NCBI GenBank assembly: GCA_038065125.1
Contig: JBBTRP010000006.1
Location: 172-64,171 of the forward strand
Direction: 5' to 3'
DNA: 64,000 nucleotides
DNA from: Patescibacteria group bacterium
GTDB lineage: Bacteria > Patescibacteriota > Patescibacteriia > JACQRZ01
Each line of letters opens with the position of its first letter. Position 1 is the first letter of the stretch. The notes below the pieces were generated by a model. It saw nothing but the letters and a program-made list of their open reading frames with translations. It was not told the DNA's origin and did not search any database. Below, in pieces: positions 850 to 19,845 of the stretch. The position numbers were made by a program, and so were the translations under genes.

Positions 850-852
850 ATT

Positions 853-3650: not shown

Positions 3651-3652
3651 AG

Positions 3653-4515: not shown

Positions 4516-4622
4516 AGAATACTGATATGGGAGTGAAAAGGTATGATAAGTGTAAAGAACGGGCGGCAGCTGTCAAGCATTGAAGTTTTGCCGTCTCTTT
4601 GCTAGGCTTTGGGTGAACGAGT

Positions 4623-6086: not shown

Positions 6087-6094
6087 CAGTTTTT

Positions 6095-7444
6095 ATGACT
6101 CGATATCGCTGGATCATTTTTCTTATATTTTCGATTCTGTTCTGCGCAACAGGAGTTGCTCTATTATTGTATGCGCAAGGATACCGCTATCATTTCGGCA
6201 GAAAAACGCTTGAAAAGACCGGGCAATTGAGTATTGAATCAAAACCAAAAGGCGCATCGCTCAGCGTGAATGGTCAGCAGTCTTTTGGTAGAGCGCTCTT
6301 TTCAGGAGGGGAACAGGACGGCAAAACTCCCGAACGCATCCCCGGCCTTCTGTCAGGAACCTATACTGTTCATCTAGAGAGTGACGGGTATTATCCCTGG
6401 ACACGAGTTGTTACCGTTGAGTCGGGGCAGGCCACGCTCATTCGGCCTGCAATCCTCATTCGGAAAAATGCGACAGATGAGATTACACCAACCCTTGAGA
6501 GAACCGCAACACTTGCCGCAGTGCCCCTCTCCCAGGTTTTTGTTGCCACTCAAAATGAACTCACTGTTTTTAATCCAAAAACAAAGCAGTCCCGAATCAT
6601 CCTTCGGGCAGGGGAGCCATTTTCATTCGTCTCGAAAAGCCCGAACGAACAATCGATTCTTCTGGCAAGCAAGAAAAACGCATGGTTGGTCGGAAGTGAC
6701 GGACGACTCGACCCCCTCATTCTCCCGCGCGATACCATAGATCAATTCCGTTGGAGCACGAACGGCGACCGTATAGTAGGACTCACGGGCGGCAAGATTT
6801 TCCAGTTGTTTTCGCGTTCCAAGCCTCGTGTCTTGACAACAACCTCTGCATCTGACGCTCTTCTTCATGGTTCGTCGCTTATTTTTGTCCCGAAGGAAAA
6901 TCCCAGAGAAGTGCGTCGGCTATCTCTGCTTGAAAAGACTTCGCCCGAGGAGGTTGTCGTCCGGGTGTCAAGCGCGATATCTCGAATCATTGCAACACAC
7001 GGGAGCCACCTCGTTATTGCGTATGGAAAAAATGATCTTGCGGTGGTGGACGACTCTTCTGACGGGACAACGCAATCGTCATTACGCGCGGGCACAGAAG
7101 CTCGATTTTGGGATGCTCGTACTCTTATTTCCTGGAATGATTTTGAGGTGTTCCGGACTGATTTTATAAACGAACGGGCTGCAACACCCCAACTCATAGT
7201 CCGTAGGAGTGTACCGATTCGTAAAGTTGAACTCCTTCCCGAAATCGGATATATCGCAGTACTATTCGATGATGGATCCGTAAGTGTGATAGAACAAACG
7301 GGGGCAGAGTCGCGAAACCGATATACTCTTGCTGATCGGTCGATTAAGGATATTACTGCCCTTGATGGGAAGGGGTTGGTGTGGATTCGGTCGGAATCTG
7401 GAAAGGACGTGATGAGGTTGGAGACGGTACGTCTTGTCCAGTGA
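6095..7444 (+). CDS. membrane-anchored PEGA-domain protein (hypothetical)
   Basis: N-terminal TM helix, then PEGA-like beta-sandwich segment (SVNGQQ..PERIPGLLSGTYTVHLESDGYYPW). Rest has no recognisable catalytic motif. Confidence 0.5.
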   Translation: MTRYRWIIFLIFSILFCATGVALLLYAQGYRYHFGRKTLEKTGQLSIESKPKGASLSVNGQQSFGRALFSGGEQDGKTPERIPGLLSGTYTVHLESDGYYPWTRVVTVESGQATLIRPAILIRKNATDEITPTLERTATLAAVPLSQVFVATQNELTVFNPKTKQSRIILRAGEPFSFVSKSPNEQSILLASKKNAWLVGSDGRLDPLILPRDTIDQFRWSTNGDRIVGLTGGKIFQLFSRSKPRVLTTTSASDALLHGSSLIFVPKENPREVRRLSLLEKTSPEEVVVRVSSAISRIIATHGSHLVIAYGKNDLAVVDDSSDGTTQSSLRAGTEARFWDARTLISWNDFEVFRTDFINERAATPQLIVRRSVPIRKVELLPEIGYIAVLFDDGSVSVIEQTGAESRNRYTLADRSIKDITALDGKGLVWIRSESGKDVMRLETVRLVQ

Positions 7445-8858
7445 CCATGTCGCTTCCTAATATAATGACAAAATCAGGCGGGAGAGCAGGGGAAGATGTT
7501 GCTTGAGAATTATCCTCAATCAGTGTCGACGATGGAAGAAGTGAGAGAAGCGTTTCTCGACTGAATTTTTTTAACGGTACGGGCGGAGAGAAAAGGCGCG
7601 AAACCACTGCGTCGCGCTGCTCTGCATTTTCAATGGAGACGACCGTGTAGCCCGCTTTGGTGAGAGAGGAGGCAAACCGGCCCGCAAGTCCGGGCGTGCG
7701 CGTGCCATTTTTGACGACGACGCGAGGCGCCTCGTCGCGGATTTTTCGTGCGGTTTCTTTTTTGACCTCGCGGCTAAAAATATCACGGACAACGACTTGC
7801 ATCTGCTCGAACGTCCCGTCTCGGGGAAGAAGGACATACGCCCCCTCAACGACCGAGCTGGTCAAAAAGTTTTCCGGTCCGTCATCAAAGACAAAGGAAA
7901 GGATATGGTCCTGATCGATCGATCGGGCGAGCGAGAGAAAGGCGAGGAGCTCCCACGACTTGATGTTGGTCGAGATGTGCTCGCGAAGCGATGAAACGAC
8001 GTCGTTTATTTTTTGCGGATTGAGCAGGAATTGAGCAGAGAATACTTTTTCCTTGACCGCGGTGATGACTTTTTGCTGTCGTGCACTGCGAGCAAAGTCC
8101 GATCCCTCATTATTCATTCCGCTATGGCGCGACCGCACGAACATGAGTGCACGCGCGCCGTCCATGGTTTGCGGTCCGGCGGAAAAGGAGATCGTCTGGT
8201 ATTTGTAGTCATCAGTCGGGTAGCTGTAGTCGGTGAACGGTTTGTCTACGTCAATCTCAAGTCCGCCGAGGATGTCGACAATCTCGCTAAAGCCGGCAAA
8301 ATCGACCCGGAGTGTGTAGTGGACGGGAACATTCAACACCTTACTGATGACCGCGGCAGCCGTTTCTGGTCCGGAGCCGGGCGCATTCATCTCTGCAAAG
8401 GCGTTTGCGTTATTGATTTTTCTCCATCCGTATCCTTCAATGGGGACGAGAAGATCGCGCGGGATGGATATGAATGCCGCTGAACGGGTTGAGGGTTTCA
8501 CGCTTAGGAGAATGTTGGTGTCGGAGAGCTGGGGGCCATCATGGTCTTTGCCGCCCACACCCAAGAGTAGTAGATTAATTCGATCTTCCTGTTCACCCAA
8601 GAGCGCACGATCTTTCGTCTCTCCGAACTGAGGACGCGATCCGAATAGGATCGAATGAAGCACAGAATTAAGTGCCGAGGTATCGTTTTGGGATTGCTGG
8701 TAGGAGAATACCGACGTTGCGCTCAAGATGACGATGCCGATCGCGAAAAAACCCAGGAGGGAGGGAAGGACACGAATGGTTGTTTGTTCTTGTTTTCGAT
8801 CGGGTTTTTTCGGTGTATTTTCGTCAAGTCGGAGCAAATTGATCTCAACTTTGTTCAT
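7353..8858 (-). CDS. LytR-CpsA-Psr (LCP) family glycopolymer transferase with LytR_C domain
   Basis: N-terminal TM. LCP core (NILLLGVGGKDHDGPQLSDTNILLSV, SIPRDL, MFVRSRH). C-terminal LytR_C-like region (PRVVVKNGTRTPGLAGRF..DFVIILGSD). Confidence 0.8.
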   Translation of the reverse strand: MNKVEINLLRLDENTPKKPDRKQEQTTIRVLPSLLGFFAIGIVILSATSVFSYQQSQNDTSALNSVLHSILFGSRPQFGETKDRALLGEQEDRINLLLLGVGGKDHDGPQLSDTNILLSVKPSTRSAAFISIPRDLLVPIEGYGWRKINNANAFAEMNAPGSGPETAAAVISKVLNVPVHYTLRVDFAGFSEIVDILGGLEIDVDKPFTDYSYPTDDYKYQTISFSAGPQTMDGARALMFVRSRHSGMNNEGSDFARSARQQKVITAVKEKVFSAQFLLNPQKINDVVSSLREHISTNIKSWELLAFLSLARSIDQDHILSFVFDDGPENFLTSSVVEGAYVLLPRDGTFEQMQVVVRDIFSREVKKETARKIRDEAPRVVVKNGTRTPGLAGRFASSLTKAGYTVVSIENAEQRDAVVSRLFSPPVPLKKFSRETLLSLLPSSTLIEDNSQATSSPALPPDFVIILGSDMVTGQDVPSPTSSRPFQIPTESTPTPSHQGQ

Positions 8859-8920
8859 AGTCCTTGCGAAGACGGAAAAATTGACAGGTGATTGCGTTAG
8901 GATACACTAAAATTGTCGTT

Positions 8921-8952
8921 CTGGCAATTATTGGTTTGTGATTCTGTACAAT
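8921..8952 (+). promoter_or_regulatory. possible sigma70-like promoter for tRNA-Val (-10 TACAAT at 8947-8952, preceded by TG)
   Basis: Sequence tggcaat..ctgTACAAT about 60 nt upstream of the tRNA. Weak -35. Confidence 0.25.
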
Positions 8953-9012
8953 GAGCTGGAGCTGATTATCCGACGAAGACACAAAAACTTCATCATTACT
9001 CATGGGCGATAT

Positions 9013-9086
9013 GGGCGTTTAGCTCAGCTGGTTAGAGCGCACCGTTCACATCGGTGAGGTCAGAGGTTCGAGTCCTCTAACGCCCA
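9013..9086 (+). tRNA. tRNA-Val (anticodon CAC)
   Basis: Cloverleaf folded by hand. Acceptor GGGCGTT/AACGCCC, D-stem GCTC/GAGC, anticodon stem CACCG/CGGTG with loop TTCACAT, T-arm AGAGG-TTCGAGT-CCTCT, discriminator A. No encoded CCA. Confidence 0.9.
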
Positions 9087-9097
9087 TGAGTGAAGGG

Positions 9098-9143
9098 GAG
9101 GTCACATCCGTGAGGTCACGGGTTCGATCCGCGGGTCTGGGGA
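9098..9143 (+). other. degenerate duplicate of the tRNA-Val 3' half (anticodon loop to T-arm), not a complete tRNA
   Basis: cacatcCgtgaggtcaCGggttcgaTCcgCGGgtctgggg aligns to cacatcGgtgaggtcaGAggttcgaGTccTCTaacgccca of the upstream tRNA. Confidence 0.4.
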
Positions 9144-9151
9144 TTGTATTG

Positions 9152-10999
9152 TCAATTTTTTACTTCTTGAGTTGTGATCTGAATGAGGGCTTCGCAGGCG
9201 GCGCTGGCATTATTCCCGGCGCATTCTTTTTTGATATTTTCAAGCGCTGACATCAAGTTCGCTTGCCGCTCTGATCCGTGAAGCCGCGCAATAAAGATTT
9301 TTTCTAACGGGGTGGGAATCTCGCCGGCAATTAGGAGTTCTTCGGAGAGGCGCTCTCCCGGGCGGGGAGCGGTCGTGATGATTTGAATATCGATTTCAGG
9401 TTGATAGCCCGCAAGGCGGATCATTTCAGTGGCAAGGTCGCACACTTTGACGGGCGTGCCCATGTCAAGGCAGAAAATTTCCCCGTTTCCCGAGAGCGCT
9501 CCGGCTTGTAGGACCAGGAGGCACGCCTCTGATGTCACCATAAAGTATCGCTGCATGTCCGGGTGTGTAATTTCTACCGGGCCACCTTTTTTGATTTGCT
9601 CTCGGAAGATTTCTATCACGTTACCTTGTGAGTCAAGGACATTACCAAAGCGCACGGCGCAAAATGAGGTTTTGCCCGGCCCGGTTCCGTGGAGCTCGAC
9701 GCAGAGCATCTCCCCGACGCGTTTGGTGCGACCCATGACTGAGACCGGTCTGACCGCCTTGTCAGTCGAGATGAAAATGAATTTTTCCGCCGCATGTTCA
9801 ATCGAAGCACGCGCAACGGAGAGCGTACCGAAGATATTGTTTTTGATCGCCTCCAGGGGGTTTTCTTCCATCACCGGTACGTGCTTGTACGCGGCGGCGT
9901 GGAATACGATCTGGGGTTGCCGCTCGCTAAAGATCGCCGCGATTCGACCCTCATCACACACGTCCGTAACGATTCCGGCAAAGGGAGCATGGGGAAGTTT
10001 TTCCCGAATCGAACGGGAAAGATAAAACATTGCCGTCTCATTCTGATCAATGCCGATGACGGATTGTGGATGAAACGCGAGTAATTCGCGGATAAGCTGC
10101 GAGCCGATCGAGCCGGCGGCGCCAGTCACCAAGATCCTCTTGCCCTGAATAAAATCGCGCATAAGCCGTGTGTCGATTTTGACGGACTCGCGTCCCAGCA
10201 AATCTTCGATAGAAATGTCGCGAATAGTGGAGAGCGTTACCCGCCCTCCTATAACATCTTCGAGCGAGGGAAGGACTTTGAGGCGTGCAATATCGACCTG
10301 CTGTTCGCGTGCCGCGGCGATACATTTACGGATCTGTGGGTTTTCCGTTGCAAGAAGGACTTCGTCGATCGAGTACAACCGGAAGAGACGACCGAGATCT
10401 CCAAGTGTGCCGAGGACCGGGATGCCGTGGATCGTGGTGTGCTGTTTCACATTACTACCATCGAGAAAGCCGACCAGATGGTAGGTCGCGCTCATTAGGA
10501 GCGAGCGCGCAAGCTGCGCGGCGGCGTCCTCGGCGCCGATAATAAGGACTCTTTTCCCCGTGCGGTAGCGTCGCACGTCCCGTATCATTCGCTTGAGAAT
10601 TCGTACCGAACCCAAAAGGACAATCGAGAGGAGAAAATTCAGGAGCAGTGTCGAGCGAGGGAAGCTTTCGATGACGCCATAATCGCGGAGTACAAAGACG
10701 GTGAGAAGCTCGAGAAGCGTTACCAGGAGAACTCCTTTCAGGAGTTGGTACAAGTCTCTGATACTTACGAAAGAGAGATTGATGGTGTAGAGTTTTTGCC
10801 ACAAAAAAATCGGAATTGAGTAGGCGACATTCAGTGCGGAAAGGAGCACAAGGTTTCGCGTGAATATAGGGGGAAGAGCACCGTCGAAGCGCACGAGGAA
10901 GGCGGCAAGAGCCGCGACGCAGACGAGAAAAATATCGGCAGCGATAAATAGCGCATACCGATAAGGCGGTCGGGACAGGGTTGAATACAGTGAACTCAT
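9152..10999 (-). CDS. membrane-bound CapD/PglF/WbpM-family UDP-N-acetylglucosamine 4,6-dehydratase
   Basis: 4 N-terminal TM helices. Two Rossmann domains (ILVTGAAGSIGSQL, HAAAYKHVP, YxxxK context). Confidence 0.85.
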   Translation of the reverse strand: MSSLYSTLSRPPYRYALFIAADIFLVCVAALAAFLVRFDGALPPIFTRNLVLLSALNVAYSIPIFLWQKLYTINLSFVSIRDLYQLLKGVLLVTLLELLTVFVLRDYGVIESFPRSTLLLNFLLSIVLLGSVRILKRMIRDVRRYRTGKRVLIIGAEDAAAQLARSLLMSATYHLVGFLDGSNVKQHTTIHGIPVLGTLGDLGRLFRLYSIDEVLLATENPQIRKCIAAAREQQVDIARLKVLPSLEDVIGGRVTLSTIRDISIEDLLGRESVKIDTRLMRDFIQGKRILVTGAAGSIGSQLIRELLAFHPQSVIGIDQNETAMFYLSRSIREKLPHAPFAGIVTDVCDEGRIAAIFSERQPQIVFHAAAYKHVPVMEENPLEAIKNNIFGTLSVARASIEHAAEKFIFISTDKAVRPVSVMGRTKRVGEMLCVELHGTGPGKTSFCAVRFGNVLDSQGNVIEIFREQIKKGGPVEITHPDMQRYFMVTSEACLLVLQAGALSGNGEIFCLDMGTPVKVCDLATEMIRLAGYQPEIDIQIITTAPRPGERLSEELLIAGEIPTPLEKIFIARLHGSERQANLMSALENIKKECAGNNASAACEALIQITTQEVKN

Positions 11000-11970
11000 A
11001 GGAAACGGTAGAGAGCGAGTCCGCAGACTACAAGCGCGGCCTGAATACCATAGAGAATGAAGAGCGTTTTTTTGATCGAACCAACACGCCGGTGTAGCGC
11101 GTCATAGAAATGATCGCGATCCGCGAGGAGCGGCACCTGTTTTTTGAGCGTTCTTCGAATTATTATATAAATGCAATTCACGAGCGGCAAGCCGACCACC
11201 AAGAGGAGCGAGAGGATAAGAAGCGGGGAGAGAATCTTCAATGCAAAAAACATTTGAACACTGACGAGAAAGCCGAACAGATAGCTCCCATTATCACCGA
11301 GAAAAATCGATGCGGGGGGAAAGTTATGTAGAAGAAATCCAAGAGCCGCTCCGCCGGTTAGCGCCGCGATAATCATTCCAAGCGCATTTTGCTCGTGAAG
11401 GAATATGACGAAAAACCCAAGCGATGAGAGAGCCACCAATCCCGCCAGGAGACCGTCAAGTCCGTCGATAATGTTACTTGCGTTGATAAGGGTAATGAGA
11501 AGTACCGCGCCAATGAGTGACCCAACAAGGGTTGAGGTGGAAAGGATGACTCCTGCGTCGGCACTCATGAGGAGGACACTCGCAAGAGTGGCCATCACAA
11601 TTTGAGATACAATTTTTTGCAAAAGTGCAGGGGTACTTCGAACTTGCCACTTAAGGTCGTCCCACAGTCCAAAAAGCCACACGACGATGCCGGCAAGAAA
11701 AACAGTCCAGAGCGTGGGTGAGGCGTATAAAACTCCAAAAACTCCAAATGTTTCAGCGAGGGTGCTGCCAAGAGCAACTGCCGCAATACTGACGAGAATC
11801 GCAAGGCCGCCAAGGAATGGGATGGGTTTGTTATGGATCTTGAGGCCGTCGTTGGCCGGGTTGTCCGTGAAATTAAATAATCGCGCACCTCGCTTGATGA
11901 GAGGCAAAACGGCTGCGCATACCAAACCCCCCAGAAGGAATATCAGGCCCAGAAGTACCGGAAATGTCAT
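10996..11970 (-). CDS. polyprenyl-phosphate HexNAc-1-phosphate transferase (WecA/MraY family initiating transferase)
   Basis: Polytopic, about 10 TM. MraY/WecA motifs (NFTDNPANDGLKIHNKPIPFLGGLAI, NASNIIDGLDGL). 4-bp overlap with upstream gene. Confidence 0.8.
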   Translation of the reverse strand: MTFPVLLGLIFLLGGLVCAAVLPLIKRGARLFNFTDNPANDGLKIHNKPIPFLGGLAILVSIAAVALGSTLAETFGVFGVLYASPTLWTVFLAGIVVWLFGLWDDLKWQVRSTPALLQKIVSQIVMATLASVLLMSADAGVILSTSTLVGSLIGAVLLITLINASNIIDGLDGLLAGLVALSSLGFFVIFLHEQNALGMIIAALTGGAALGFLLHNFPPASIFLGDNGSYLFGFLVSVQMFFALKILSPLLILSLLLVVGLPLVNCIYIIIRRTLKKQVPLLADRDHFYDALHRRVGSIKKTLFILYGIQAALVVCGLALYRFL

Positions 11971-13196
11971 TGGTTGGTGATAAGTTTCAAGGCGTTACTG
12001 TAGGTTTCTGCAAGAGCTTCCCGGGTATAGTGCGCGGTCACAAACGAATATCCATTGCGACCCAGCTCTTCGCCCTTCTCGCGGTTACCGGCGAGAAAAA
12101 GGATTTTTTCCTTTAAATCATGAGGATTTTCCGGTTCGCAGAATACACCCGCGTGTGCCCCTTGTACCACAAGATCGCGCGCGGCACCGTCGATTGCGAG
12201 GATGACGGGCCTTGAACAGGCCATATAGTCAAAGACCTTATTCGGATAAACCGTCTTAAAAATATCAAGTTTTTTGAGTACCGCAAGCCCCGCATCGCAC
12301 GCCTCAATCATGTCGGCAATTTTTTCTTTCGGCATGGGATCGAGGAAGGCGACCTGTTTTAGTCCTTCTCGCTGTGCGCGATCCTGGAGTTCCTTCTTTT
12401 TCATGCCCTCGCCCATGAGCAGAAAAACAATATCCGCGCGGTCCTTGAGCAGCGCGGCGGCGTCAAGAATCTGGTCAAGGTGGTTCGCGATACCATGCGC
12501 ACCGATATAGAGTACTGTATATGCGTTCTCGATCCCGAGACGCTGTCGCATAATCTCGCGGGGCGTAGTGACGCGAAGTAAGTCCATATCCGCACCGTTG
12601 GGGAGGAGGATGATTTTTTCGCGCGGAACCTTCTTTTCGTCGATGAGCTTGTCGCGGAATGCTGGAGTAAGTACGGGAATTAGTGACGCTGCAAGGTACA
12701 GTTTTTTTTCGAGCCACAGCGCAGTGGCGATGAGAAAACGGTTTTTGAGGACCCCGACCTCGATAGCGGACTCCGGCCAGAGGTCGCGTACTTCAAAAAC
12801 CAACGGGATACGCCATCTCCAACTTGCAAGAAGCCCCGGTATGCCGACATGCAGGGGTGGCGAGGTCGCGATCACCACATCGGGCGTGCCGGCCATAAGC
12901 ACGCCAACACTCGCGCTCACGGTAAAAGAGAGATATCCCCACATGCGGCCTAAGAAATTTTTATTGTACGCATCAGAGACGAATGTGCGGATTAATGTGA
13001 CGTCATTATCTTTTTCAATTGCAATAAGTTTTCCGCGGTATTTTTGCGGCTTCGTGCCGGTCAGATAGTGCGCCATGCCACAGACCACCGTGACAGTGTG
13101 CCCCTCACGCGTCCAATATTTTGCAAACTGATTGAAGCGCGAAATCCCCGCACCGCCCTGCTCAAGATAGTATTGGTGGATGATAAGGATCTTCAT
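11967..13196 (-). CDS. glycosyltransferase family 4 (WbuB-like)
   Basis: GT-B fold. N-terminal MKILIIHQYY, C-terminal EGxxxxxxE region. Confidence 0.8.
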   Translation of the reverse strand: MKILIIHQYYLEQGGAGISRFNQFAKYWTREGHTVTVVCGMAHYLTGTKPQKYRGKLIAIEKDNDVTLIRTFVSDAYNKNFLGRMWGYLSFTVSASVGVLMAGTPDVVIATSPPLHVGIPGLLASWRWRIPLVFEVRDLWPESAIEVGVLKNRFLIATALWLEKKLYLAASLIPVLTPAFRDKLIDEKKVPREKIILLPNGADMDLLRVTTPREIMRQRLGIENAYTVLYIGAHGIANHLDQILDAAALLKDRADIVFLLMGEGMKKKELQDRAQREGLKQVAFLDPMPKEKIADMIEACDAGLAVLKKLDIFKTVYPNKVFDYMACSRPVILAIDGAARDLVVQGAHAGVFCEPENPHDLKEKILFLAGNREKGEELGRNGYSFVTAHYTREALAETYSNALKLITNQ

Positions 13197-15118
13197 ACCC
13201 TGCCTGCCTTCTCAATAAAAATTTGATGCCAAAGTGAGAAGGTGATGAGCGACCAGAGCTGATAGCTCGTGTCCCCGATATCTCGCTCGTGTGCACTCAC
13301 GAGCTGCTGGACTGCTGCAGCGTTGAAGTACTGCATCGATGGACGGTTGGGGGAGAGGAGGTCTGACCCGAGCTCCTGGAGCGATTTTTTCCACGATCGG
13401 ATCGGAAGCGCGAAACCGGTTTTTTTCTGATACACCAGATCCCTGGGAAGCGTTGCTTCCGCGAATTTTTTTACCACATATTTCCCCTCCACACCTCTCA
13501 ACTTGAATTGGAGGGGCAGCGAGAATGCAAACTCGATAATATCGCGGTCAAGAAACGGCGAGCGGACCTCGCAGCCCGATGCCATGCTCATCTTGTCGGT
13601 GTACATGAGGTTGTGCTCCGGGAGGAATGTCTTGAAGTCCGTGTAGAGTTGCCGCGTGAGAAGATCACGACTCCCAAAGCGTGCGAAGTGCCGACGTTTT
13701 GACGCGAGGGTGTCGAGAGGCACGACAGGCCTTGCAAGTAGATGCCCGACCTCCGAATCGGTCAGCCAAGCAGTGAGTCCCAGACTTCGCTCGTCGCGCG
13801 GGAGCACCAGGAATTTTCCCTTACGGACGAGATAGCGAATCCAGGAGTTGGTGTGGCTCAAGCGTTCCAAGGCGGGCGAACCTACCGAGAGTGCGATTTT
13901 GACGAGCGGATTTACGAGACACTGGACAGCGTCCAGGTTCCGGAGCTTCCAGGCCATGAGATAGTGATTGTATCCGGCAAAAAGTTCATCGCTTCCCATT
14001 CCCGAGAGAAGCACGGTGATGCCGCCGCGGCGCGCTTCACGGCAGATGAGATACGCGTTGATTTCGGCAGGATCCGTGATCGGTTCATCAAGGTGCCAAA
14101 TAACGCTGGGTAGGAGCTCGAGGAGATTCGGTTCGAGAATGAGCTCTCGATAGTCGATCCGAGGCCCGAGAAGATTTTTGAGTTGTCGAGCAAAAACAAG
14201 TTCGTTTTTTCCCGCAGTGTCCCGGTGTGTGTCGACTGCGCGAAACCCGGTGGTGAAGGAGACCAGAGGCTCATCGGTGAATTCGCAGGCGTGTCGGACA
14301 ATAAGACTTGAGTCTAGTCCGCCCGAAAGAAAGGCGCCGACTTTCACGTCTGCAATCATATGACGTTTGACTGCCGAGCCAAACAGACGTCCGAACTCGT
14401 CGACTGCATCAGTGAACGTGCCGGAGAACGGCGTCACTCGCTCAAGGGGATTCCACCACTCCTTGAGTGTCACGGTCCCGTCTTTCCACAAAAGAGAATG
14501 GGCTGCGGGGAGCTTGAAGATTCCCTCAAACATAGTGCCGGGTTCGTGCACGCGCAGGGAGGCGAGGTACCCCGGGATTGCAGTAGTGTTGACGCGAGGA
14601 GAGACGAGGCCGGATGCAAGGATCGCCTTGATCTCGGATGCCCACACGAGACTGCCGTCCGGCAGGTGTGAGTAGTACAAAGGTTTTTGGCCGGTATGAT
14701 CGCGCGCAAGGAGCAGCGTATTCTCGCGTTGATCCCAGAGCGCAAGCGCGAACATGCCGTTGAATTTGGACAGCGCGTCCGCGCCCCACGCTCTGACGCT
14801 TTCCACAATAACCTCGGTATCCGATCTAGAGCGGAACGTGTGTCCGAGGTGCTCAAGGTCCGCTTTGATTTCTCGGAAGTTATAAAGCTCACCGTTGTAG
14901 GTGATCCAGAGTTTTTGTGACTCGTCGCTCATCGGCTGGTGTCCCGCTGGGGAGAGATCGAGAATTGCCAGACGGCGCATGCCCAGGAAGACGTTCCATT
15001 CGCCCGCACGGCGCACGACGGTGCCGCGGTCGTCGGGGCCACGATGCGCGATGCGATCCGTCATCGCATCGATAGGTACGGTGTTATTTTTTGTAATTGC
15101 TCCGACGATGCCGCACAT
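13193..15118 (-). CDS. asparagine synthetase B-like glutamine-dependent amidotransferase (WbpS-like)
   Basis: MCGIVG N-terminal nucleophile Cys. SGGLDSS PP-loop. Confidence 0.85.
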   Translation of the reverse strand: MCGIVGAITKNNTVPIDAMTDRIAHRGPDDRGTVVRRAGEWNVFLGMRRLAILDLSPAGHQPMSDESQKLWITYNGELYNFREIKADLEHLGHTFRSRSDTEVIVESVRAWGADALSKFNGMFALALWDQRENTLLLARDHTGQKPLYYSHLPDGSLVWASEIKAILASGLVSPRVNTTAIPGYLASLRVHEPGTMFEGIFKLPAAHSLLWKDGTVTLKEWWNPLERVTPFSGTFTDAVDEFGRLFGSAVKRHMIADVKVGAFLSGGLDSSLIVRHACEFTDEPLVSFTTGFRAVDTHRDTAGKNELVFARQLKNLLGPRIDYRELILEPNLLELLPSVIWHLDEPITDPAEINAYLICREARRGGITVLLSGMGSDELFAGYNHYLMAWKLRNLDAVQCLVNPLVKIALSVGSPALERLSHTNSWIRYLVRKGKFLVLPRDERSLGLTAWLTDSEVGHLLARPVVPLDTLASKRRHFARFGSRDLLTRQLYTDFKTFLPEHNLMYTDKMSMASGCEVRSPFLDRDIIEFAFSLPLQFKLRGVEGKYVVKKFAEATLPRDLVYQKKTGFALPIRSWKKSLQELGSDLLSPNRPSMQYFNAAAVQQLVSAHERDIGDTSYQLWSLITFSLWHQIFIEKAGRV

Positions 15119-15124
15119 ACTGGG

Positions 15125-15152
15125 TAGCCGTTAGCTTTTAGCCGTTAGCTTT
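15125..15152. repeat. perfect 14-bp tandem duplication (TAGCCGTTAGCTTT)x2 at the SDR stop codon / asnB-like start junction
   Basis: Read directly: tagccgttagcttt tagccgttagcttt tagctggg. Confidence 0.8.
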
Positions 15153-16079
15153 TAGCTGGGAATAATAATCTCGCCAATACTGGAGGAGGTGGGGGAGGGT
15201 GTTGTTGAGGAAATCGAATTGAGGGTGCCAGCCGGTTTCGCGCGTCAGTTTTTCGTGCGACCCGACACTGACTGAAGGCTCTCCGGATACGGACTCACAA
15301 ATCTCGATGGGCACCTTCGCAAGCCCAACCGCCGCCTGAGCGATCTGGCGGATCGAGAGCTGACGACCTGAGCAGACATTAAAGATGTCACCTTTCATTT
15401 CGTGCTCCAGAAGGAGCTGATACGCAGACACCACGTCTCCAACATCGAGATAATCGCGCAGATTCTCTGGATTTTCAATATGAATAATCGGCTTGCGCAA
15501 GCCTTGTTCGATCTGCGCTATCTGCTGTAAAAGACTACTCACGAATGTGATCGGTTTTTGTCCACCTCCCGAATGTTGGAACGGGCGTACTATGGTGAGT
15601 GGTATTTGATGTCGATCGGCAAAAAATTTCGCACAGCACTCCGCACCGTATTTACTGAGCGCATAGGGTGTGTCAAGCGAGAGGAGCGACTCCTCAGCGA
15701 TTGGGTCTGGGGAAGGGGAGTACACGGCAGATGAACTTACCAAAATGACGCCAGTGTGTGCAGTTCTGCACGCATCAAGCACGGCAAGAGTTCCTTCGAT
15801 ATTCGTCTCAATGGTTACTTGAGCACCCTGAACGGTTCTTGATGAGGGTCCGTGCGCGGCGGCAAGGTGAATCACGGTGTCGGGCTTCAGGTCAGAGACG
15901 ATACGCGAAACGCCTGAGGCGTCAGTGACGGAGCAGTTAAATGTCTGACCGCGCAGGAGAGCGGGCGGATGCGAATCTTTTCGCGTAATACCAAACACCT
16001 CATACCCCGAAGCAATCAAAGAAGCGGCAAGATGCCTCCCCACGAATCCATTCACTCCGGTAATCAGTATTTTTTTCAT
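15138..16079 (-). CDS. NAD-dependent sugar epimerase/dehydratase (extended SDR)
   Basis: ILITGVNGFVGRHL glycine-rich motif. YxxxK (YALSKYGAE). Confidence 0.8.
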   Translation of the reverse strand: MKKILITGVNGFVGRHLAASLIASGYEVFGITRKDSHPPALLRGQTFNCSVTDASGVSRIVSDLKPDTVIHLAAAHGPSSRTVQGAQVTIETNIEGTLAVLDACRTAHTGVILVSSSAVYSPSPDPIAEESLLSLDTPYALSKYGAECCAKFFADRHQIPLTIVRPFQHSGGGQKPITFVSSLLQQIAQIEQGLRKPIIHIENPENLRDYLDVGDVVSAYQLLLEHEMKGDIFNVCSGRQLSIRQIAQAAVGLAKVPIEICESVSGEPSVSVGSHEKLTRETGWHPQFDFLNNTLPHLLQYWRDYYSQLKANG

Positions 16080-16897
16080 TTCTTCATTTCTCGTTCATTC
16101 AACTCCTTGAGTTTAATCGAAATATGAAACTCCTGGATACCACGCAATATGCAAAACACAAATCCCGGATAGCCGTCCAGAAAACCCCGTTGGATGACGT
16201 ACATAATGAAGAAGCGTAAAAAGGGCCTCCCCGGCAGCCGGTAAAAAATATTTTTTAGCGCGCGTTTTTGCTCGACCGGATTTCGGGAAAAAAGTGAACC
16301 GTCGAGCGTCTCGGTTGGGCGTATGCGTTCTGTCGCCTCAAGCGATGAGTAGCGGTTATGTTTTTTAATCCACGCCTCCAGTCCTTTATGATCCTCGTGA
16401 ATGAGGTCTTTGGCGATATAGCCGACCGACCCGGACGGAATCATATGCTCGTCAACGCCGCGGTCTTCATACCGCGCCGCGCTTTTTTTGAAGAAGCGAA
16501 GACTCCACGACGGATACCATCCCGCGTGACGGATCCATCGGCCGAGAAAATAAAAACGTCGGTTGACATACCAGCATTCAGGGCTTAAAGAGTCGCTAGT
16601 AACACGGACGAGCTCATCGCGCAGCTCTGGAGTGATGCACTCATCAGCGTCAAGAATAAAGATCCACTCGCCAGTGAACGGGAGGGTATCAAGTGCCCAA
16701 TTTTTTTGTTTTGCATACCCGTCAAACTGCCGCTGAACCAGGTGTGTGTTTGAAAAACTCTTTACAATGTCTGGCGTGGCATCCGAACTGAAGTTATCAA
16801 CGACGAAAATTTCATCCGCCCATGCGCAACTCTCCAGCGCATGACGGATATTTGTTTCTTCATTATAACTTTGGATGAGAACCGAGATTCTGTTCAT
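16076..16897 (-). CDS. glycosyltransferase family 2
   Basis: SVLIQSYNEE..VVDNFSSD..ILDADE (DxD) GT-A motifs. Confidence 0.8.
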   Translation of the reverse strand: MNRISVLIQSYNEETNIRHALESCAWADEIFVVDNFSSDATPDIVKSFSNTHLVQRQFDGYAKQKNWALDTLPFTGEWIFILDADECITPELRDELVRVTSDSLSPECWYVNRRFYFLGRWIRHAGWYPSWSLRFFKKSAARYEDRGVDEHMIPSGSVGYIAKDLIHEDHKGLEAWIKKHNRYSSLEATERIRPTETLDGSLFSRNPVEQKRALKNIFYRLPGRPFLRFFIMYVIQRGFLDGYPGFVFCILRGIQEFHISIKLKELNEREMKK

Positions 16898-17508
16898 AGC
16901 TTGACCCCAAAGGCGATAGTGTCCATCCAGAGAGGCGCAAAGCGACCAATATGGCGAAATGCGGGCGCAAGACCGCGCTTACGTAAAAGATTGTGCAGCG
17001 CCCGGTCAGAAAAAAAACGGATATGCGGTCCGGTGACGTCAAAGTGCTTATCGAATCCAATTAGTGCGAGAATGAAATTTTTTACATACCCGTGAAATGG
17101 AGTTGTGATGAAGAAAAATCCGCCGGGCGCAAGTACCCGAGCAATCTCCGTGACGAATTGCTCGGTATCATACACATGCTCAATCACTTCCGCGCAAAAA
17201 ATTGCGTCAAATTGTCCTGGCGCGTAGGGGAGTGTGCCGTTCGATCGAATGAGATCGAACGAGATATGAGGAAACGATGTTTGTGCTTTGCGAATGGCAG
17301 TTTCGGATAGGTCGACGCCGGAAATATTAAAACCAAGTTTTCCGATACGGTCAGTGAGCGCACCATCGCCGCAACCGATGTCGAGAATTGATTGCGGCCT
17401 ACTCTGCTGAATATGATTCAGAAATAAAGACAACCGAATTGGAGAAAGAGGGTCATTTTCCGGCGGGGCTTCGTGTTGCCAATAGGTGTTATAGTACTCT
17501 CTGCTCAT
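16894..17508 (-). CDS. class I SAM-dependent methyltransferase
   Basis: ILDIGCGDGALT motif I. Methyltransf_11-like order. Confidence 0.8.
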   Translation of the reverse strand: MSREYYNTYWQHEAPPENDPLSPIRLSLFLNHIQQSRPQSILDIGCGDGALTDRIGKLGFNISGVDLSETAIRKAQTSFPHISFDLIRSNGTLPYAPGQFDAIFCAEVIEHVYDTEQFVTEIARVLAPGGFFFITTPFHGYVKNFILALIGFDKHFDVTGPHIRFFSDRALHNLLRKRGLAPAFRHIGRFAPLWMDTIAFGVKL

Positions 17509-18628
17509 ATGAAGAAAATAATTCTAAAATCCTTGAAACATGATCATCCCATCGAAAATAGTGAATCCGCTCTTGAGTTTTGCGGATGAGCTGATCTTGG
17601 AGTCCCTTATTCAATGCGAGCTCCCGTATTGTACGTGCCCAGGCGCTTGAATCAAGAGGTGAAACATAGAGCGCGGCATCAGCGCACAGCTCGCGGTTGA
17701 CGGGAAGATCCGAGCAAACAATCGGCAGGCCCGCCGCCATCGCCTCAATGAGAGGGTGTCCGAACGACTCGGCAAGCGAAGGCCAAACGAAAATATCTGC
17801 ATCCGCATAGAGTGCCGGCAGTTGCGGGGGTGGGAGGGGTCCCAGCGCATTCAGTGAGTCTCCCAGAGCCTTCATAAGGTCGAGGTCGTGGCTGGCGGTT
17901 GGAACCGTTTTGAAGAGGGGGAGCGATGGATCAATCGTCGCGGTCAATAAAAACTGCAAGGAGCCCTCGTTTTTGAGCCTCAGAAGGCCTTCCAGAAGCG
18001 AGGAGTAGTTTTTATAGTCCGAATAATGGCTGGTACATAAAATTCGCACCGGCGTACGTAGTGGCACTGTATTTCTGGAAAATGCACTTGGGTCTGTCCC
18101 ATACCAGTTTATGCTCGTCCTGACTGAGTCAACGGGTTTTGGCGTGAAAAAATCTTGTTGGAGGCTCGCAGTCGGGAATAGTGTATGTGTGGCAATTTTC
18201 TGGGAGGCGCTGATCAGGAGCGAACGCAGTGTAAACGTGAGGCGACTCGACAGAGATTTTTTTCGAAGAATGTGAGTTTTGTAGAGCTCTGAGAAGTACA
18301 GCGGGATGCGCACCAAGAGGATTTGAGGACAGGGAGAAAAAAAAGTTGCGAAATTCGCCGTTGAGTAGAGAAGATCGAATTTTTCTTTCCATAGGAGAAT
18401 TGGCAGTGTGATTTGTTGCCACAAAAAAATTCGAATAGGTGACTCGCATATACTCGCGTCGACAATTGCCAGCCGAATATTTTTTGCTGCACAGTCCACA
18501 ACTCCTTGTCGCACGACGATGGTGATTTCGTGTCCACGGGGGCGAGCATCCAGCTCGCGGATGAGCCGCTCAAGATACGTGAGCGCGCCCCCCATCCGCG
18601 CCGAAGTCGCGTTAATCAAGATTCTCAT
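17489..18628 (-). CDS. glycosyltransferase family 4
   Basis: C-terminal GT-B motif (FVWPSLAESFGHPLIEAMAAGLPIV). ATG at 18628 forms an ATGA overlap with the upstream gene's stop. The ORF-track start at 18646 is a TTG with no SD. Confidence 0.75.
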   Translation of the reverse strand: MRILINATSARMGGALTYLERLIRELDARPRGHEITIVVRQGVVDCAAKNIRLAIVDASICESPIRIFLWQQITLPILLWKEKFDLLYSTANFATFFSPCPQILLVRIPLYFSELYKTHILRKKSLSSRLTFTLRSLLISASQKIATHTLFPTASLQQDFFTPKPVDSVRTSINWYGTDPSAFSRNTVPLRTPVRILCTSHYSDYKNYSSLLEGLLRLKNEGSLQFLLTATIDPSLPLFKTVPTASHDLDLMKALGDSLNALGPLPPPQLPALYADADIFVWPSLAESFGHPLIEAMAAGLPIVCSDLPVNRELCADAALYVSPLDSSAWARTIRELALNKGLQDQLIRKTQERIHYFRWDDHVSRILELFSSYEQRVL

Positions 18629-19845
18629 CGTTCGGTGAGCCCACAAAAATCAAGGATCTGCGCGCCTTGGGGGAAAGAAACTTTTTTGAACACATCATGC
18701 GCGACCAGACACACGATAATATCGCCAGATTCCAACGAAGGAGCAGTATTAGTAATGTAGAACTCAAGCGCGCGCGTGATGTGCGGATCGACGCAGAAAA
18801 CATCGTATCCCTCACGGATCAGTTGTCGCACGATTGAGAGAGCCGGTGATTCGCGAATGTCATCGCTATTTGGCTTGTATGAGAGTCCAAGACAGGCGAT
18901 TGATGGCGCGCGATGGTTGACTCGCGTAAACTCAAATGCCGCCTTCCGAATCTTATCGACAACCCACTTTGTTTTTTCGGTGTTGCGATGATGTGCCGCG
19001 GAAATGAGTTTTGCCTCGTCTCGCGCAGCATGGGAGATGAAAAGCGGGTCGACGGCGACGCAGTGCCCACCCACTCCGGGGCCGGGTTTGAGAATGTTGA
19101 CGCGCGGATGCTTGTTTGCGCACTCAATCACATTCCAAACATTAAGCCCCGACTCATCGCAGATCATGGAGAGTTCGTTTGCAAAAGCGATGTTAACATT
19201 GCGATAGGCGTTCTCGACGAGCTTTGCCATTTCCGCAGTGCGCGCGTCAGTAACAATCAGCTCACCGGTGACGAACGATGCGTAGAACTCCCGGGCGCTC
19301 TGCGATGCTCGTGGAGTGAGTCCGCCGATGATTCGGGAATTTTCAATAAGCTCCGACAGAGTGTTTCCCGGTAATATTCTCTCCGGACAGTACGCGATAT
19401 CAATATCGTCGAGCGGTACGCCGCACTCGGCAAGTTGAGCCGCAACTTTTTCTGTCGTGCCGACCGGAGAGGTAGACTCCAAAATGATGAGATTGCCAGG
19501 TCGCACATGGGGTGCTAGTGCGTGTGCCGCCGCAAGGACGTGATCGATATTCGGGATGAAGTCATCCTTGAGTGGCGTGGGAACGGTAATCAGGAAAATA
19601 TTGGCGGCACTTGGCTCAAGCGCTGCCGTCAGCAAGCCCGTACCAACGCTCCCCGAAACAAGCTCATCAAGGCCTTCTTCGGCAATATGAATCTTGCCAT
19701 GATTGATCGTCTCGACAACTGATTTATTGATGTCCACGCCAGCGACACGGTAACCGTGACGTGTGAGTATTGCCGCCGTCGGCAGTCCGACGTAGCCAAG
19801 ACCCATCACACAGACTGTTTTTTTTGTTTTTTCGGGTATTTCCAT
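18625..19845 (-). CDS. nucleotide-sugar dehydrogenase (UDP-ManNAc/UDP-GlcNAc 6-dehydrogenase, WecC/Cap5O-like)
   Basis: VCVMGLGYVGLPTA NAD-binding. Catalytic Cys region (GGHCV). UDPG_MGDP_dh order. Confidence 0.8.
   Translation of the reverse strand: MEIPEKTKKTVCVMGLGYVGLPTAAILTRHGYRVAGVDINKSVVETINHGKIHIAEEGLDELVSGSVGTGLLTAALEPSAANIFLITVPTPLKDDFIPNIDHVLAAAHALAPHVRPGNLIILESTSPVGTTEKVAAQLAECGVPLDDIDIAYCPERILPGNTLSELIENSRIIGGLTPRASQSAREFYASFVTGELIVTDARTAEMAKLVENAYRNVNIAFANELSMICDESGLNVWNVIECANKHPRVNILKPGPGVGGHCVAVDPLFISHAARDEAKLISAAHHRNTEKTKWVVDKIRKAAFEFTRVNHRAPSIACLGLSYKPNSDDIRESPALSIVRQLIREGYDVFCVDPHITRALEFYITNTAPSLESGDIIVCLVAHDVFKKVSFPQGAQILDFCGLTER

What the first reader, a model, noticed from the sequence alone, without database searches (positions are those of the whole stretch)
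9013..9143. tRNA-Val followed 11 nt later by a decayed copy of its own 3' half, at the exact boundary of the 54-kb glycan island
The intact tRNA-Val(CAC) ends at 9086. Positions about 9098-9143 repeat its anticodon-loop to T-arm segment with about 10 substitutions (cacatcCgtgaggtcaCGggttcgaTCcgCGG versus cacatcGgtgaggtcaGAggttcgaGTccTCT). Partial tRNA 3'-end duplications are the classic scars of tyrosine-recombinase-mediated integration or excision at tRNA genes. The glycan island begins 9 nt downstream, at 9152, and continues to the window end. This suggests the whole glycan locus, or an earlier occupant of the site, was acquired or exchanged at this tRNA.
Basis: seen in the sequence. Interest (0 to 1): 0.55.

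Follow-up and report, generated by a model that had tools for sequence, protein, structure and literature searches.

The report
Dead tRNA-Val piece beside tRNA-Val
A working valine tRNA gene in a groundwater Patescibacteria genome is followed by a short dead piece of a second copy; it looks like a scar of break-and-rebuild events that recur at tRNA genes in this phylum, and it gives no evidence that the neighbouring 54-kb sugar-coat gene region arrived there.

Summary
The tRNA-Val(CAC) gene (9013-9086) is real. A direct partial copy follows it, but it is shorter than described. It is a 26-29 nt internal piece (9102-9130, 23/26 identical) running from anticodon loop to T loop. It does not reach the tRNA 3' end and is not a tRNA.

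The integrase/island reading fails its own tests:
- No integrase, no second repeat and no composition step occur at 9.1 kb.
- Two relatives (L008, L096) have the same nine glycan genes at the same site and no fragment.
- The upstream neighbour is an LCP glycan-attachment gene.
- LCP-tRNA-Val adjacency is conserved across Patescibacteria.

Such fragments recur. Of 42 tRNA-Val(CAC) loci, 10 have 3' pieces downstream, and upstream pieces are always 5' pieces. In the best-preserved relatives (L055, L038, L121) an intact tRNA sits nested inside a precisely split older copy. In some, the insert carries an ~80-aa GIY-YIG nuclease gene and a conserved GC-rich hairpin.

Best reading (confidence 0.5): the window fragment is a relic of such a tRNA-gene break-and-replace event. 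Rivals are slippage duplication and an integrase att scar from an earlier occupant. The fragment's 26-mer occurs exactly in three viral contigs next to tyrosine recombinases.

The parts
7353..8858 (-). LCP (LytR_cpsA_psr + LytR_C) gene, divergent from the tRNA. It is the conserved neighbour of tRNA-Val(CAC) across Patescibacteria.
   Evidence: Pfam 123.5 and 41.5 bits. A tRNA-Val(CAC) lies within 1.5 kb upstream of the LCP gene in about 40 of 80 GTDB loci.
8881..8908 (+). Promoter-like site TTGACA-16-TACACT, about 105 nt upstream of the tRNA. The equivalent leaders in relatives are roughly 25-50 nt (read by eye).
   Evidence: Consensus scan, 10/12 matches. A consensus match only.
8988..9008 (+). 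Leader arm CTTCA..ACTCATGGGCG. It includes a 5-nt copy (GGGCG) of the tRNA 5' end and is complementary to 9081-9095.
   Evidence: Inverted repeat I1 and direct reading of the sequence. L089 has the same two-part design with different, co-varying sequence.
9013..9086 (+). Intact tRNA-Val(CAC). No CCA is encoded.
   Evidence: ARAGORN. Rfam RF00005 69.1 bits, full length.
9087..9101 (+). Spacer/trailer TGAGTGAAGGGGAGG. Its first 9 nt pair with the leader arm.
9102..9130 (+). Relic internal piece of a tRNA-Val(CAC) copy, from anticodon loop through variable loop and T-stem 5' strand to T loop. The CAC anticodon is retained. The core is 9102-9127.
   Evidence: 23/26 identity and 0 expected by chance. 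nhmmer profile positions 34-62, E 3.8e-5. Not called as a tRNA.
9131..9151 (.). Unrelated sequence between the relic and the stop codon of the convergent glycan gene. No terminator is predicted.
9152..19845 (-). Proximal glycan operon: Polysacc_synt_2, GT4 (WecA-like), GT1, AsnB-like, epimerase, GT2, methyltransferase, GT1, UDP-sugar dehydrogenase. It is syntenic in relatives that lack the fragment. This is context and not part of the scar.
   Evidence: Pfam. Synteny in L008 and L096.

Best explanation
Positions 9102-9130 are a dead internal piece (anticodon loop to T loop) of a second tRNA-Val(CAC) gene copy. I propose it was left when the tRNA gene was broken in a loop-coding position and rebuilt from, or invaded by, another tRNA-Val copy. 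One intact gene is regenerated. The remains of the older copy are pushed outwards, 3' remains downstream and 5' remains upstream.

In better-preserved relatives the whole product is visible: an intact tRNA with short complementary flanking arms sits nested inside a precisely split older tRNA. In some relatives the insert still carries an ~80-aa GIY-YIG nuclease gene, the likely agent of the break. In the window only a 3'-side relic survives, and it has no present function. The glycan genes were already next to the tRNA when this happened.

Shown:
- The repeat is real and is not a tRNA.
- The glycan genes are syntenic in relatives that lack the fragment.
- Such pieces recur in relatives with a consistent polarity.
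- Nested structures with precise junctions exist in relatives.
- The nuclease ORF is associated with tRNA genes in relatives.

Inferred:
- The window's relic arose by the same process.
- The nuclease makes the break.
- The order of events.
For: 1. Recurrence. In 10 of 42 tRNA-Val(CAC) loci a profile finds a partial copy just downstream at E<1e-3. Pairwise searches place these 15-82 nt after the gene. The same pattern occurs at tRNA-Ile, Asp and Leu genes.

2. Polarity. At E<0.01, upstream pieces contain the tRNA 5' end in 3 of 3 cases, and 12 of 12 downstream pieces lack profile positions 1-7. Fisher p is about 0.002 by my own arithmetic.

3. Nested structures with exact junctions and no target duplication or deletion.
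- L055: outer copy 9539-9576 plus 9392-9430, split at 37/38. When joined it is called tRNA-Val(CAC) by ARAGORN. It is the allele that is uninterrupted in relative L042.
- L038: outer copy identical to the inner one, split in the D loop.
- L121: a 5' piece GGGCAAT.. and a matching 3' piece ..ATTGCCCA enclose an ORF plus an intact tRNA.

4. The 3' pieces often carry a different acceptor strand from the intact gene while being identical in the centre (L044, L009, L013, L066). This points to two functional alleles and away from random decay of a local copy.

5. Nuclease association. A GIY-YIG ORF (Pfam 49 bits) lies inside the insert in L044. In 6 of 6 independent contexts its homologues sit directly upstream of an intact tRNA and downstream of a 5' tRNA piece that carries a conserved hairpin at 21/22.

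6. Breakpoints. The window fragment ends in the T loop, as do those of L009, L048 and L089. The phage GIY-YIG enzyme SegB cuts tRNA genes at a motif (RAWTSGAAC) whose reverse complement, GTTCSAWTY, resembles the T-loop coding sequence (PMC13096335; the T-loop reading is mine).

7. In both the window and L089 the fragment begins 3-6 nt after the trailer arm that pairs with the leader. This is the position of the outer 3' pieces in the nested cases.

8. Timing. L008 and L096 have the same glycan operon but no fragment.
Against: - The 64-kb window contains no GIY-YIG gene and no GC-rich hairpin.
- No significant 5' piece lies upstream of the window tRNA (p about 0.2).
- Among 42 LCP-linked loci only L044 has the nuclease gene in place.
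- The mini GIY-YIG is a single catalytic domain of the UPF0213 type, with no DNA-binding domain and no tested activity.
- The fragment differs from its neighbour by only 3 of 26 bases, so a local duplication is not excluded.
- The fragment's 26-mer matches integrase-linked sites in viral contigs, which favours a rival.
- How a complete tRNA comes to lie between complementary arms inside another tRNA is not explained mechanistically.
Confidence: 0.5

Rival explanations
1. Local partial tandem duplication. Replication slippage or unequal exchange copied about 30-45 nt of the adjacent tRNA gene a few bases downstream, and the copy has since decayed. No mobile element or nuclease is involved.
For: The copies are 56 nt apart, direct, and 88% identical over 26 nt. 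In L038, L009, L048 and L044 the downstream pieces are 100% identical to the neighbouring gene over 32-55 nt. The window leader also shows a 9-nt tandem-like repeat, GGGCGATAT/GGGCGTTTA.
Against: Similarity ends abruptly at both sides (anticodon loop and T loop) with no gradual decay. Slippage does not predict 5' pieces upstream and 3' pieces downstream, the nested arrangement, or different acceptor alleles in the pieces. The fragment is 2 mismatches from the alleles of relatives (L008/L016 and L010 types) and 3 from its neighbour (mismatch counts are my own, from the sequences). Its 26-mer exists exactly elsewhere in nature, which is unexpected for a randomly mutated copy.
Confidence: 0.2
2. 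Integrase att scar from an earlier occupant. An integrative element with a tRNA-Val(CAC)-like attP once recombined here. The element has been lost and only part of one att copy remains. The strong version, that the 54-kb glycan region is that element, is the first reader's proposal.
For: The exact 26-mer TCACATCCGTGAGGTCACGGGTTCGA occurs in three IMG/VR contigs. In two of them (L122, L124) the next gene downstream on the same strand was confirmed as a tyrosine recombinase (Phage_integrase 126 and 118 bits). The third contig (L123) is nearly identical to L122 across the site but its ORFs were not examined. Three control 26-mers from the window tRNA and from relatives gave 0 hits. Partial tRNA copies are known products of integrating elements (bioRxiv 10.1101/2022.07.05.498093).
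Against: The window has no integrase and no distal repeat. The fragment does not reach a tRNA 3' end. The order is the reverse of what integration gives: here the intact host-type gene comes first and the foreign-type piece lies 15 nt after it. Similarity to the viral contigs does not extend one base beyond the tRNA-derived 26-mer. Those elements appear GC-rich by eye in the stretches read (GC was not computed). Their nearest named integrase homologue is from Chloroflexota at 46% identity. The controls were Patescibacteria-specific alleles, which are likely rare in viral collections, so the contrast may be biased. The strong version is contradicted by L008 and L096.
Confidence: 0.2
3. The segment is a functional RNA element of the tRNA transcript, such as a tRNA-like 3' module, a processing signal or a terminator.
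For: Leader and trailer pair in the window and in L089 with co-varying sequence. Fragments sit at a similar place in several lineages.
Against: The fold is no better than shuffles on either strand. No Rfam family matches and no terminator is predicted. The fragment's T stem and acceptor cannot pair. The fragment is absent from L008 and L096. Its extent and sequence differ between lineages.
Confidence: 0.05

Closest known systems
attL/attR direct repeats left by tyrosine-recombinase elements integrating into tRNA genes
   Same: A partial direct copy of a tRNA gene lies next to the intact gene, at a site whose downstream content varies between lineages.
   Different: There is no integrase and no distal partner. 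The copy is internal (about positions 33-60) and does not run to the 3' end. Only 15 nt separate the copies. The adjacent genes are ancestral to the clade.
Phage T4/T6 SegB, a free-standing GIY-YIG homing endonuclease in tRNA gene clusters (PMC13096335)
   Same: A GIY-YIG nuclease gene sits next to tRNA genes. Breaks fall inside tRNA genes at a motif that resembles the T-loop coding sequence. Recombination then produces duplicated or amplified tRNA segments. Relatives of the window show mini GIY-YIG ORFs abutting tRNAs, and arrays of partial tRNA copies (L099).
   Different: The Patescibacteria proteins are about 80 aa and consist of the catalytic domain only (UPF0213-like). They are chromosomal and not phage-borne. 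They are accompanied by a conserved hairpin at D-loop 21/22 and by nested tRNA copies. None is present in the window.
tRNA-Thr gene disruption by a mobile element in Caldiarchaeum subterraneum (PMC3293823)
   Same: A 5' tRNA fragment is left upstream of a newer complete tRNA copy after insertion of mobile DNA. Population heterogeneity occurs at the locus.
   Different: The organism is an archaeon. The inserted element is 1.8 kb and encodes a recombinase. The tRNAs have BHB introns spliced by an endonuclease. None of this is seen here.
Group I introns in Patescibacteria tRNA genes (PMC13011429)
   Same: Same phylum, with insertions in tRNA anticodon loops that annotation tools miss.
   Different: The inserts here are about 30-170 nt, too short for group I ribozymes, and give no Rfam intron hit. 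The paper does not mention fragments, hairpins or nested tRNAs.
Small palindromic insertion elements that enter genes precisely (Rickettsia RPEs, mitochondrial GC clusters; from my own knowledge)
   Same: GC-rich hairpins are inserted without target duplication at defined positions of structured genes, here the tRNA loops of relatives.
   Different: Here they mark disabled tRNA copies, sit beside a nuclease gene, and sometimes enclose a whole tRNA. None is in the window.

Membership tests
Integrase-mediated tRNA att repeat bounding a genomic island | Tyrosine (or serine) recombinase gene in the island, usually next to the tRNA | tested here: not met
   Pfam scans of the 52 ORFs chosen as likely genes between 9152 and 64000 show only glycan, sugar and metabolic families. 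Seven have no hit.
Integrase-mediated tRNA att repeat bounding a genomic island | Second direct copy of the tRNA 3' segment at the far end of the island | tested here: inconclusive
   None occurs within the window at up to 3 mismatches. The island runs off the window end, so the far end was not seen.
Integrase-mediated tRNA att repeat bounding a genomic island | Repeat extends from the crossover point to the 3' end of the tRNA | tested here: not met
   Similarity stops in the T loop at about 9130. The 3' 22-mer of the tRNA has no second match.
Integrase-mediated tRNA att repeat bounding a genomic island | Island absent from the same site in related genomes, and compositionally distinct | tested here: not met
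   L008 and L096 have the same nine genes at the site. GC/GC3 is equal on both sides of the tRNA. L098 does have another glycan cluster there.
Bona fide tRNA or tRNA-like RNA | Cloverleaf or covariance-model match, or stable structure | tested here: not met
   ARAGORN calls only one gene. Rfam gives no hit at E<=10 for 9098-9143. Fold z-scores are -0.09 and -0.60.
SegB-like free-standing GIY-YIG homing endonuclease locus | GIY-YIG ORF adjacent to the tRNA gene | tested here: not met
   None in the window. The feature is met in relatives: L044, L099, L109, L113, L115 and L121.
SegB-like free-standing GIY-YIG homing endonuclease locus | Breakpoints of rearranged copies at the T-loop motif of tRNA genes | tested here: inconclusive
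   The window, L009, L048 and L089 fragments end at positions 57-60. Other pieces break in the D loop or anticodon loop.
SegB-like free-standing GIY-YIG homing endonuclease locus | Sequence-directed DNA cleavage and homing | not testable with these tools
   Needs biochemistry or crosses. The protein lacks a recognisable DNA-binding domain.
Archaeal-type split or intron-containing tRNA (bulge-helix-bulge splicing) | BHB motif at the junctions of the interrupted copy | tested here: not met
   By inspection of L055, L038 and L070, the first and last bases of the inserts pair with each other, with no staggered 3-nt bulges. No formal BHB search was run.
Group I intron in tRNA | Ribozyme core detectable, insert of at least about 200 nt | tested here: not met
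   No Intron_gpI hit in seven loci. Inserts are 30-170 nt.

The most novel reading that the evidence does not exclude
Patescibacteria may carry an undescribed class of self-complementing tRNA-gene invaders. Each is a small cassette made of a conserved GC-rich hairpin, sometimes an ~80-aa GIY-YIG nuclease gene, and a complete replacement tRNA. It enters the cognate resident tRNA gene precisely at a loop position (D loop 21/22, anticodon loop 37/38 or T loop). It keeps the cell supplied with the tRNA while splitting the old copy, and successive rounds pile up 5' pieces upstream and 3' pieces downstream. The window's fragment would be one footprint. A bolder sub-reading is that some interrupted outer copies, which are perfect cloverleaves in L055 and L038, are still expressed and spliced. 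That would be a tRNA nested in the intron of another tRNA in a bacterium.
Probability: 0.35. Interest if true: 0.75.

Novelty: new variant of a known kind. Interest (0 to 1): 0.45.

Why it matters
For this window, the tRNA fragment should not be used as evidence that the large glycan region is a recently integrated island. The proximal operon is vertically inherited in this clade.

More broadly, the comparison suggests that tRNA genes in Patescibacteria are recurrent targets of a break-and-replace process that leaves polar tRNA debris. Its signs are nested tRNAs, precise hairpin insertions and mini GIY-YIG genes abutting tRNAs. I found no description of this in the searchable literature, which covers only group I introns in these tRNAs.

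If confirmed, this would add a new kind of selfish element to very small genomes. It would help explain assembly breaks and mis-called tRNAs in these MAGs. It would also provide a natural system in which a mobile element compensates for the gene it destroys.

Tried and rejected
- ARAGORN in intron mode did not call any outer or interrupted copy.
- Rfam at gathering threshold on seven relatives found only the intact tRNAs.
- Folding of 9087-9175 on both strands showed no structure beyond shuffles.
- A decayed 5' piece upstream of the window tRNA (8952-8983, collinear with the D arm and anticodon loop) was not significant (p about 0.2).
- The JGI metagenome scan with the LCP protein found no close relative; the best was 51%.
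- BLAST of the viral att-like block against plasmids and phages gave one weak, uninformative plasmid match and no phage match.
- The hairpin pattern and GIY-YIG homologues are absent from the window.
- BHB-type splicing of the inserts was considered and dropped, because the junctions pair end to end.
- Integron attC-like sites were considered and dropped, because the hairpin ends do not fit the RYYYAAC/GTTRRRY consensus (my reading).
- Assembly artefact was rejected, because the same sequence appears in four independent assemblies.

Full report
**1. Observation**

ARAGORN finds one tRNA in the 64-kb window, tRNA-Val(CAC) at 9012-9087. Rfam places it at 9013-9086 with 69.1 bits and a full-length match.

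A direct repeat follows. Positions 9046-9071 and 9102-9127 are identical at 23 of 26 positions, at an offset of 56 nt. With up to 3 mismatches the 26-mer occurs only at these two places in the window, and shuffles give 0. A profile built from 42 Patescibacteria tRNA-Val(CAC) genes hits 9102-9130 at profile positions 34-62 (E 3.8e-5).

The similarity begins in the anticodon loop, where the CAC anticodon is retained, and ends in the T loop. The following bases (TCCGCGGGTCTGGGG) do not resemble the T-stem 3' strand or the acceptor. The last 22 nt of the tRNA have no second match. The piece is therefore internal and is not a 3' half.

It is not a tRNA or a tRNA-like RNA. ARAGORN does not call it, Rfam gives no hit at E<=10, and its fold is no better than shuffles on either strand.

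The same sequence is present in four independent assemblies from the same groundwater site, one of them indel-rich and so probably from long reads. It is not an assembly artefact.

**2. Surroundings**

The window comes from a Patescibacteria (CPR) genome related to Candidatus Uhrbacteria, sampled from Hainich groundwater metagenomes.

Upstream lie dprA, topA, a superoxide dismutase, a peroxiredoxin, relA/spoT, a PEGA-domain gene and, divergent from the tRNA, an LCP (LytR_cpsA_psr) gene at 7353-8858.

Downstream, from 9152 to the window end, 45 of the 52 ORFs examined match sugar-nucleotide, glycosyltransferase, flippase, Wzy-type or related metabolic families. Seven have no Pfam hit. None matches an integrase, transposase or other mobility family.

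There is no compositional step at the tRNA. GC/GC3 is 0.513/0.549 for genes in 1-8858 and 0.521/0.571 for 9152-19845. The only shift is a lower-GC block at about 26.4-57.3 kb (0.474/0.488).

**3. Synteny**

Two relatives, L008 (LCP 56% identical) and L096 (50%, GCA_030647285.1), share the whole backbone: der-pth-dprA-topA-sod-prx-rubredoxin-relA-PEGA-LCP, then tRNA-Val(CAC). They then carry the same nine glycan genes in the same order and orientation as window 9152-19845.

Neither relative has a fragment after the tRNA. L008 has a stem-loop followed by a T run (terminator-like, by eye) there, and the profile finds nothing.

L098 (51%) has the same backbone and tRNA but a different glycan cluster there (Bac_transf, Wzm/Wzt ABC transporter, WbqC, formyltransferase, DegT).

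Across the phylum the LCP/tRNA-Val(CAC) pair is conserved in about 40 of 80 GTDB loci. In 24 of 45 loci the next gene, co-oriented with the tRNA, is signal peptidase lepB.

The flank downstream of this tRNA has therefore changed over deep time. In the window's clade, however, the proximal glycan operon predates the fragment.

**4. The fragment is one of many**

Pairwise and profile searches around the tRNA-Val(CAC) genes of the relatives show partial copies just downstream in 10 of 42 loci at E<1e-3. These are the window, L009, L013, L022, L038, L044, L048, L055, L066 and L070, with a weaker case in L089. Similar cases occur at tRNA-Ile, Asp and Leu genes.

The pieces are polar. At E<0.01 all three upstream pieces start at tRNA position 1. 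All twelve downstream pieces lack profile positions 1-7, and most run to a tRNA 3' end. Fisher p is about 0.002 by my arithmetic.

In the best-preserved cases the pieces fit together around the intact gene:
- **L055.** GGTCGCA...TTCACA | cctgcccgccgc + intact tRNA + gtccgctttggcaggcggg | TCCGTAAGG...TGCGACCACCA. The two outer parts join into a sequence that ARAGORN calls tRNA-Val(CAC). The split is exactly between positions 37 and 38. The outer allele is the one found uninterrupted in relative L042.
- **L038.** The outer copy is identical to the inner one. It is interrupted twice in the D loop, once by a 30-nt palindrome and once by complementary arms that enclose the intact tRNA.
- **L013, L022, L066, L070 and L121.** These show the same plan.

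Junctions are exact, with no target duplication or deletion. The intact tRNA is flanked by complementary arms of 11-22 nt whose sequences differ between lineages. These arms score high only in the nested cases.

The 3' pieces often have a different acceptor strand from the intact gene while being identical in the centre (L044, L009, L013, L066). This suggests two functional alleles and argues against a decaying local copy.

**5. A nuclease gene travels with these structures**

In L044 the insert between the outer 5' piece and the intact tRNA holds an 84-aa ORF with a GIY-YIG domain (49 bits). Its homologues (142 found, about 80 aa, 60-70% identical) come from Uhr-, Moran-, Magasanik-, Falkow- and Parcubacteria. 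Many lie on very short contigs.

In all six independent contexts examined (L044, L099, L109, L113, L115, L121), three features hold:
- The ORF lies directly upstream of, and often overlaps, an intact tRNA on the same strand (Val-CAC, Val-GAC three times, Asp-GTC, Ile-TAT).
- The ORF is preceded by a 5' tRNA piece.
- That piece carries the hairpin CCCGCCCG...CGGGCGGG exactly between GGTTA (position 21) and GAGCG (position 22).

L099 has a tandem array of at least five such 5' pieces. Sample L100 differs from it by 275 nt, which may reflect a different number of units.

The closest solved proteins are single-domain UPF0213 GIY-YIG proteins. Neither the ORF nor the hairpin is present in the window.

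**6. A conflicting clue**

The fragment's exact 26-mer occurs in three IMG/VR contigs. There it is part of a tRNA-Val(CAC) 3'-half-like site. In two of the contigs (L122, L124) the next gene downstream on the same strand is confirmed as a tyrosine recombinase (126 and 118 bits). The third contig (L123) is near-identical around the site but its ORFs were not examined.

Three control 26-mers, from the window tRNA and two relatives' alleles, gave no hits.

The similarity does not extend beyond the tRNA-derived 26-mer. The flanking stretches that were read look GC-rich by eye; GC was not computed. Contigs carrying close homologues of the integrase top out at about 36-40 kb. The nearest named integrase homologue is from Chloroflexota at 46% identity.

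This shows that the fragment's 26 nt equal a real allele used as an att site somewhere. It keeps an att-scar origin alive. The controls may be biased, because Patescibacteria alleles are expected to be rare in viral collections.

**7. Interpretation**

My best explanation (0.5) is that the fragment is a relic of a break-and-replace event in the tRNA gene itself, of the kind seen intact in relatives. A nuclease-induced break is the probable trigger. The phage enzyme SegB is a precedent: a GIY-YIG nuclease linked to tRNA genes, it cuts inside them at a motif resembling the T-loop coding sequence and drives segmental duplication (PMC13096335).

Several steps remain inference: the link from the relatives to the window, the role of the nuclease, and how a complete tRNA comes to lie between complementary arms.

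The rivals are:
- simple slippage duplication (0.2);
- an att scar of a lost earlier occupant (0.2);
- a functional RNA element (0.05).

**8. Known versus new**

Partial tRNA gene copies next to tRNA genes are a known kind of scar (bioRxiv 10.1101/2022.07.05.498093; PMC3293823 for an archaeal case).

For Patescibacteria tRNAs the literature I could search describes group I introns only (PMC13011429). GIY-YIG proteins appear there only as horizontally transferred genes (PMC12455944).

The nested tRNAs, the precise loop-position hairpins and the mini GIY-YIG/tRNA units seen in the relatives appear to be undescribed. My searches were limited to open-access text.

The window feature itself is a small decayed relic of modest interest. 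The pattern it led to is the more interesting result.

Noticed in passing
L055:9392-9576 (minus strand): A complete tRNA-Val(CAC) (9450-9526) with 12- and 19-nt flanking arms is nested exactly between positions 37 and 38 of a second tRNA-Val(CAC). The halves of that second tRNA (9539-9576 and 9392-9430) join into a sequence ARAGORN calls tRNA-Val(CAC). The outer allele equals the uninterrupted gene of relative L042.
   Followed up: partly
L038:9659-9902 (minus strand): The outer tRNA-Val(CAC) copy is 100% identical to the inner intact gene. It is interrupted at D-loop 17/18 by a 30-nt palindrome (TCCACCAAATGCGGATCCGCCTTTGGTGGA) and at 21/22 by arms CCCGCCCGAACGACC.../...GTCGTTCGGTCGGGCGGG that enclose the intact gene. 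ARAGORN mis-calls the 3' part as a second tRNA.
   Followed up: partly
L044:9432-9683; L099:2001-2282; L109:2001-2243; L113:2001-2240; L115:1501-1743; L121:1501-1761: A family of ~80-aa single-domain GIY-YIG ORFs. Each abuts or overlaps the 5' end of an intact tRNA (Val, Asp, Ile). Each is preceded by a 5' tRNA piece bearing a conserved hairpin CCCGCCCG..CGGGCGGG at D-loop 21/22. L099 has a tandem array of such pieces, and array length differs between samples.
   Followed up: partly
L070:8100-8800; L048; L121:1830-1864: GC-rich hairpins are inserted precisely, with no target duplication, at tRNA loop positions 17/18, 21/22, 37/38 and in the T loop of disabled tRNA copies. Their ends are of the type CCC...GGG.
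   Followed up: partly
window:8988-9008 with 9081-9095; L089 upstream and downstream of tRNA 71-144: The leader contains a 5-nt copy of the tRNA 5' end (GGGCG; GGGCA in L089) preceded by an arm. Together these are complementary to the 3' acceptor strand, the discriminator and the trailer (11+4 bp in the window, 14+6 bp in L089). The sequence co-varies between the two lineages. It may be a processing or regulatory helix competing with the acceptor stem.
   Followed up: partly
window:26439-57336: A block of 32 glycan genes has lower GC (0.474, GC3 0.488) than the rest of the window (about 0.51-0.52, GC3 0.54-0.57). If any part of the glycan region was exchanged horizontally, this is the candidate, and its edges are not at the tRNA.
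   Followed up: no
L002, L003, L005 (same strain) and L007 (LCP 65%): Several short-read and Logan contigs end inside the tRNA-Val gene, at window positions of about 9048-9073. This suggests assembly-graph branching at this tRNA, either from k-mers shared with other community members or from structural variants downstream.
   Followed up: no
L122:7950-7975, L123:7541-7566, L124:5667-5692: Three IMG/VR contigs carry the window fragment's exact 26-mer within a tRNA-Val(CAC) 3'-half-like site. In L122 and L124 a tyrosine recombinase gene lies directly downstream; L123's ORFs were not checked. L122 also has a second integrase, an HTH gene and an FtsK/SpoIIIE-like gene. The host is unknown.
   Followed up: partly
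L098:1-9713: A relative with the same backbone and tRNA has a different polysaccharide cluster (Bac_transf, Wzm/Wzt ABC transporter, WbqC, formyltransferase, DegT) at the position of the window's Polysacc_synt_2 operon.
   Followed up: no
24 of 45 loci, e.g. L011, L012, L056, L075: The widespread arrangement in Patescibacteria is LCP (divergent), then tRNA-Val(CAC), then signal peptidase lepB, co-oriented and 30-350 nt after the tRNA. In L008 an S26 peptidase gene lies elsewhere, between sod and topA.
   Followed up: partly
L032:14442-14627; L053:11866-12302: ARAGORN in intron mode predicts tRNA-Val(TAC) with a 111-nt insert and tRNA-Lys(TTT) with a 348-nt insert in the anticodon loop. The latter could be a group I intron of the kind reported for this phylum.
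   Followed up: no
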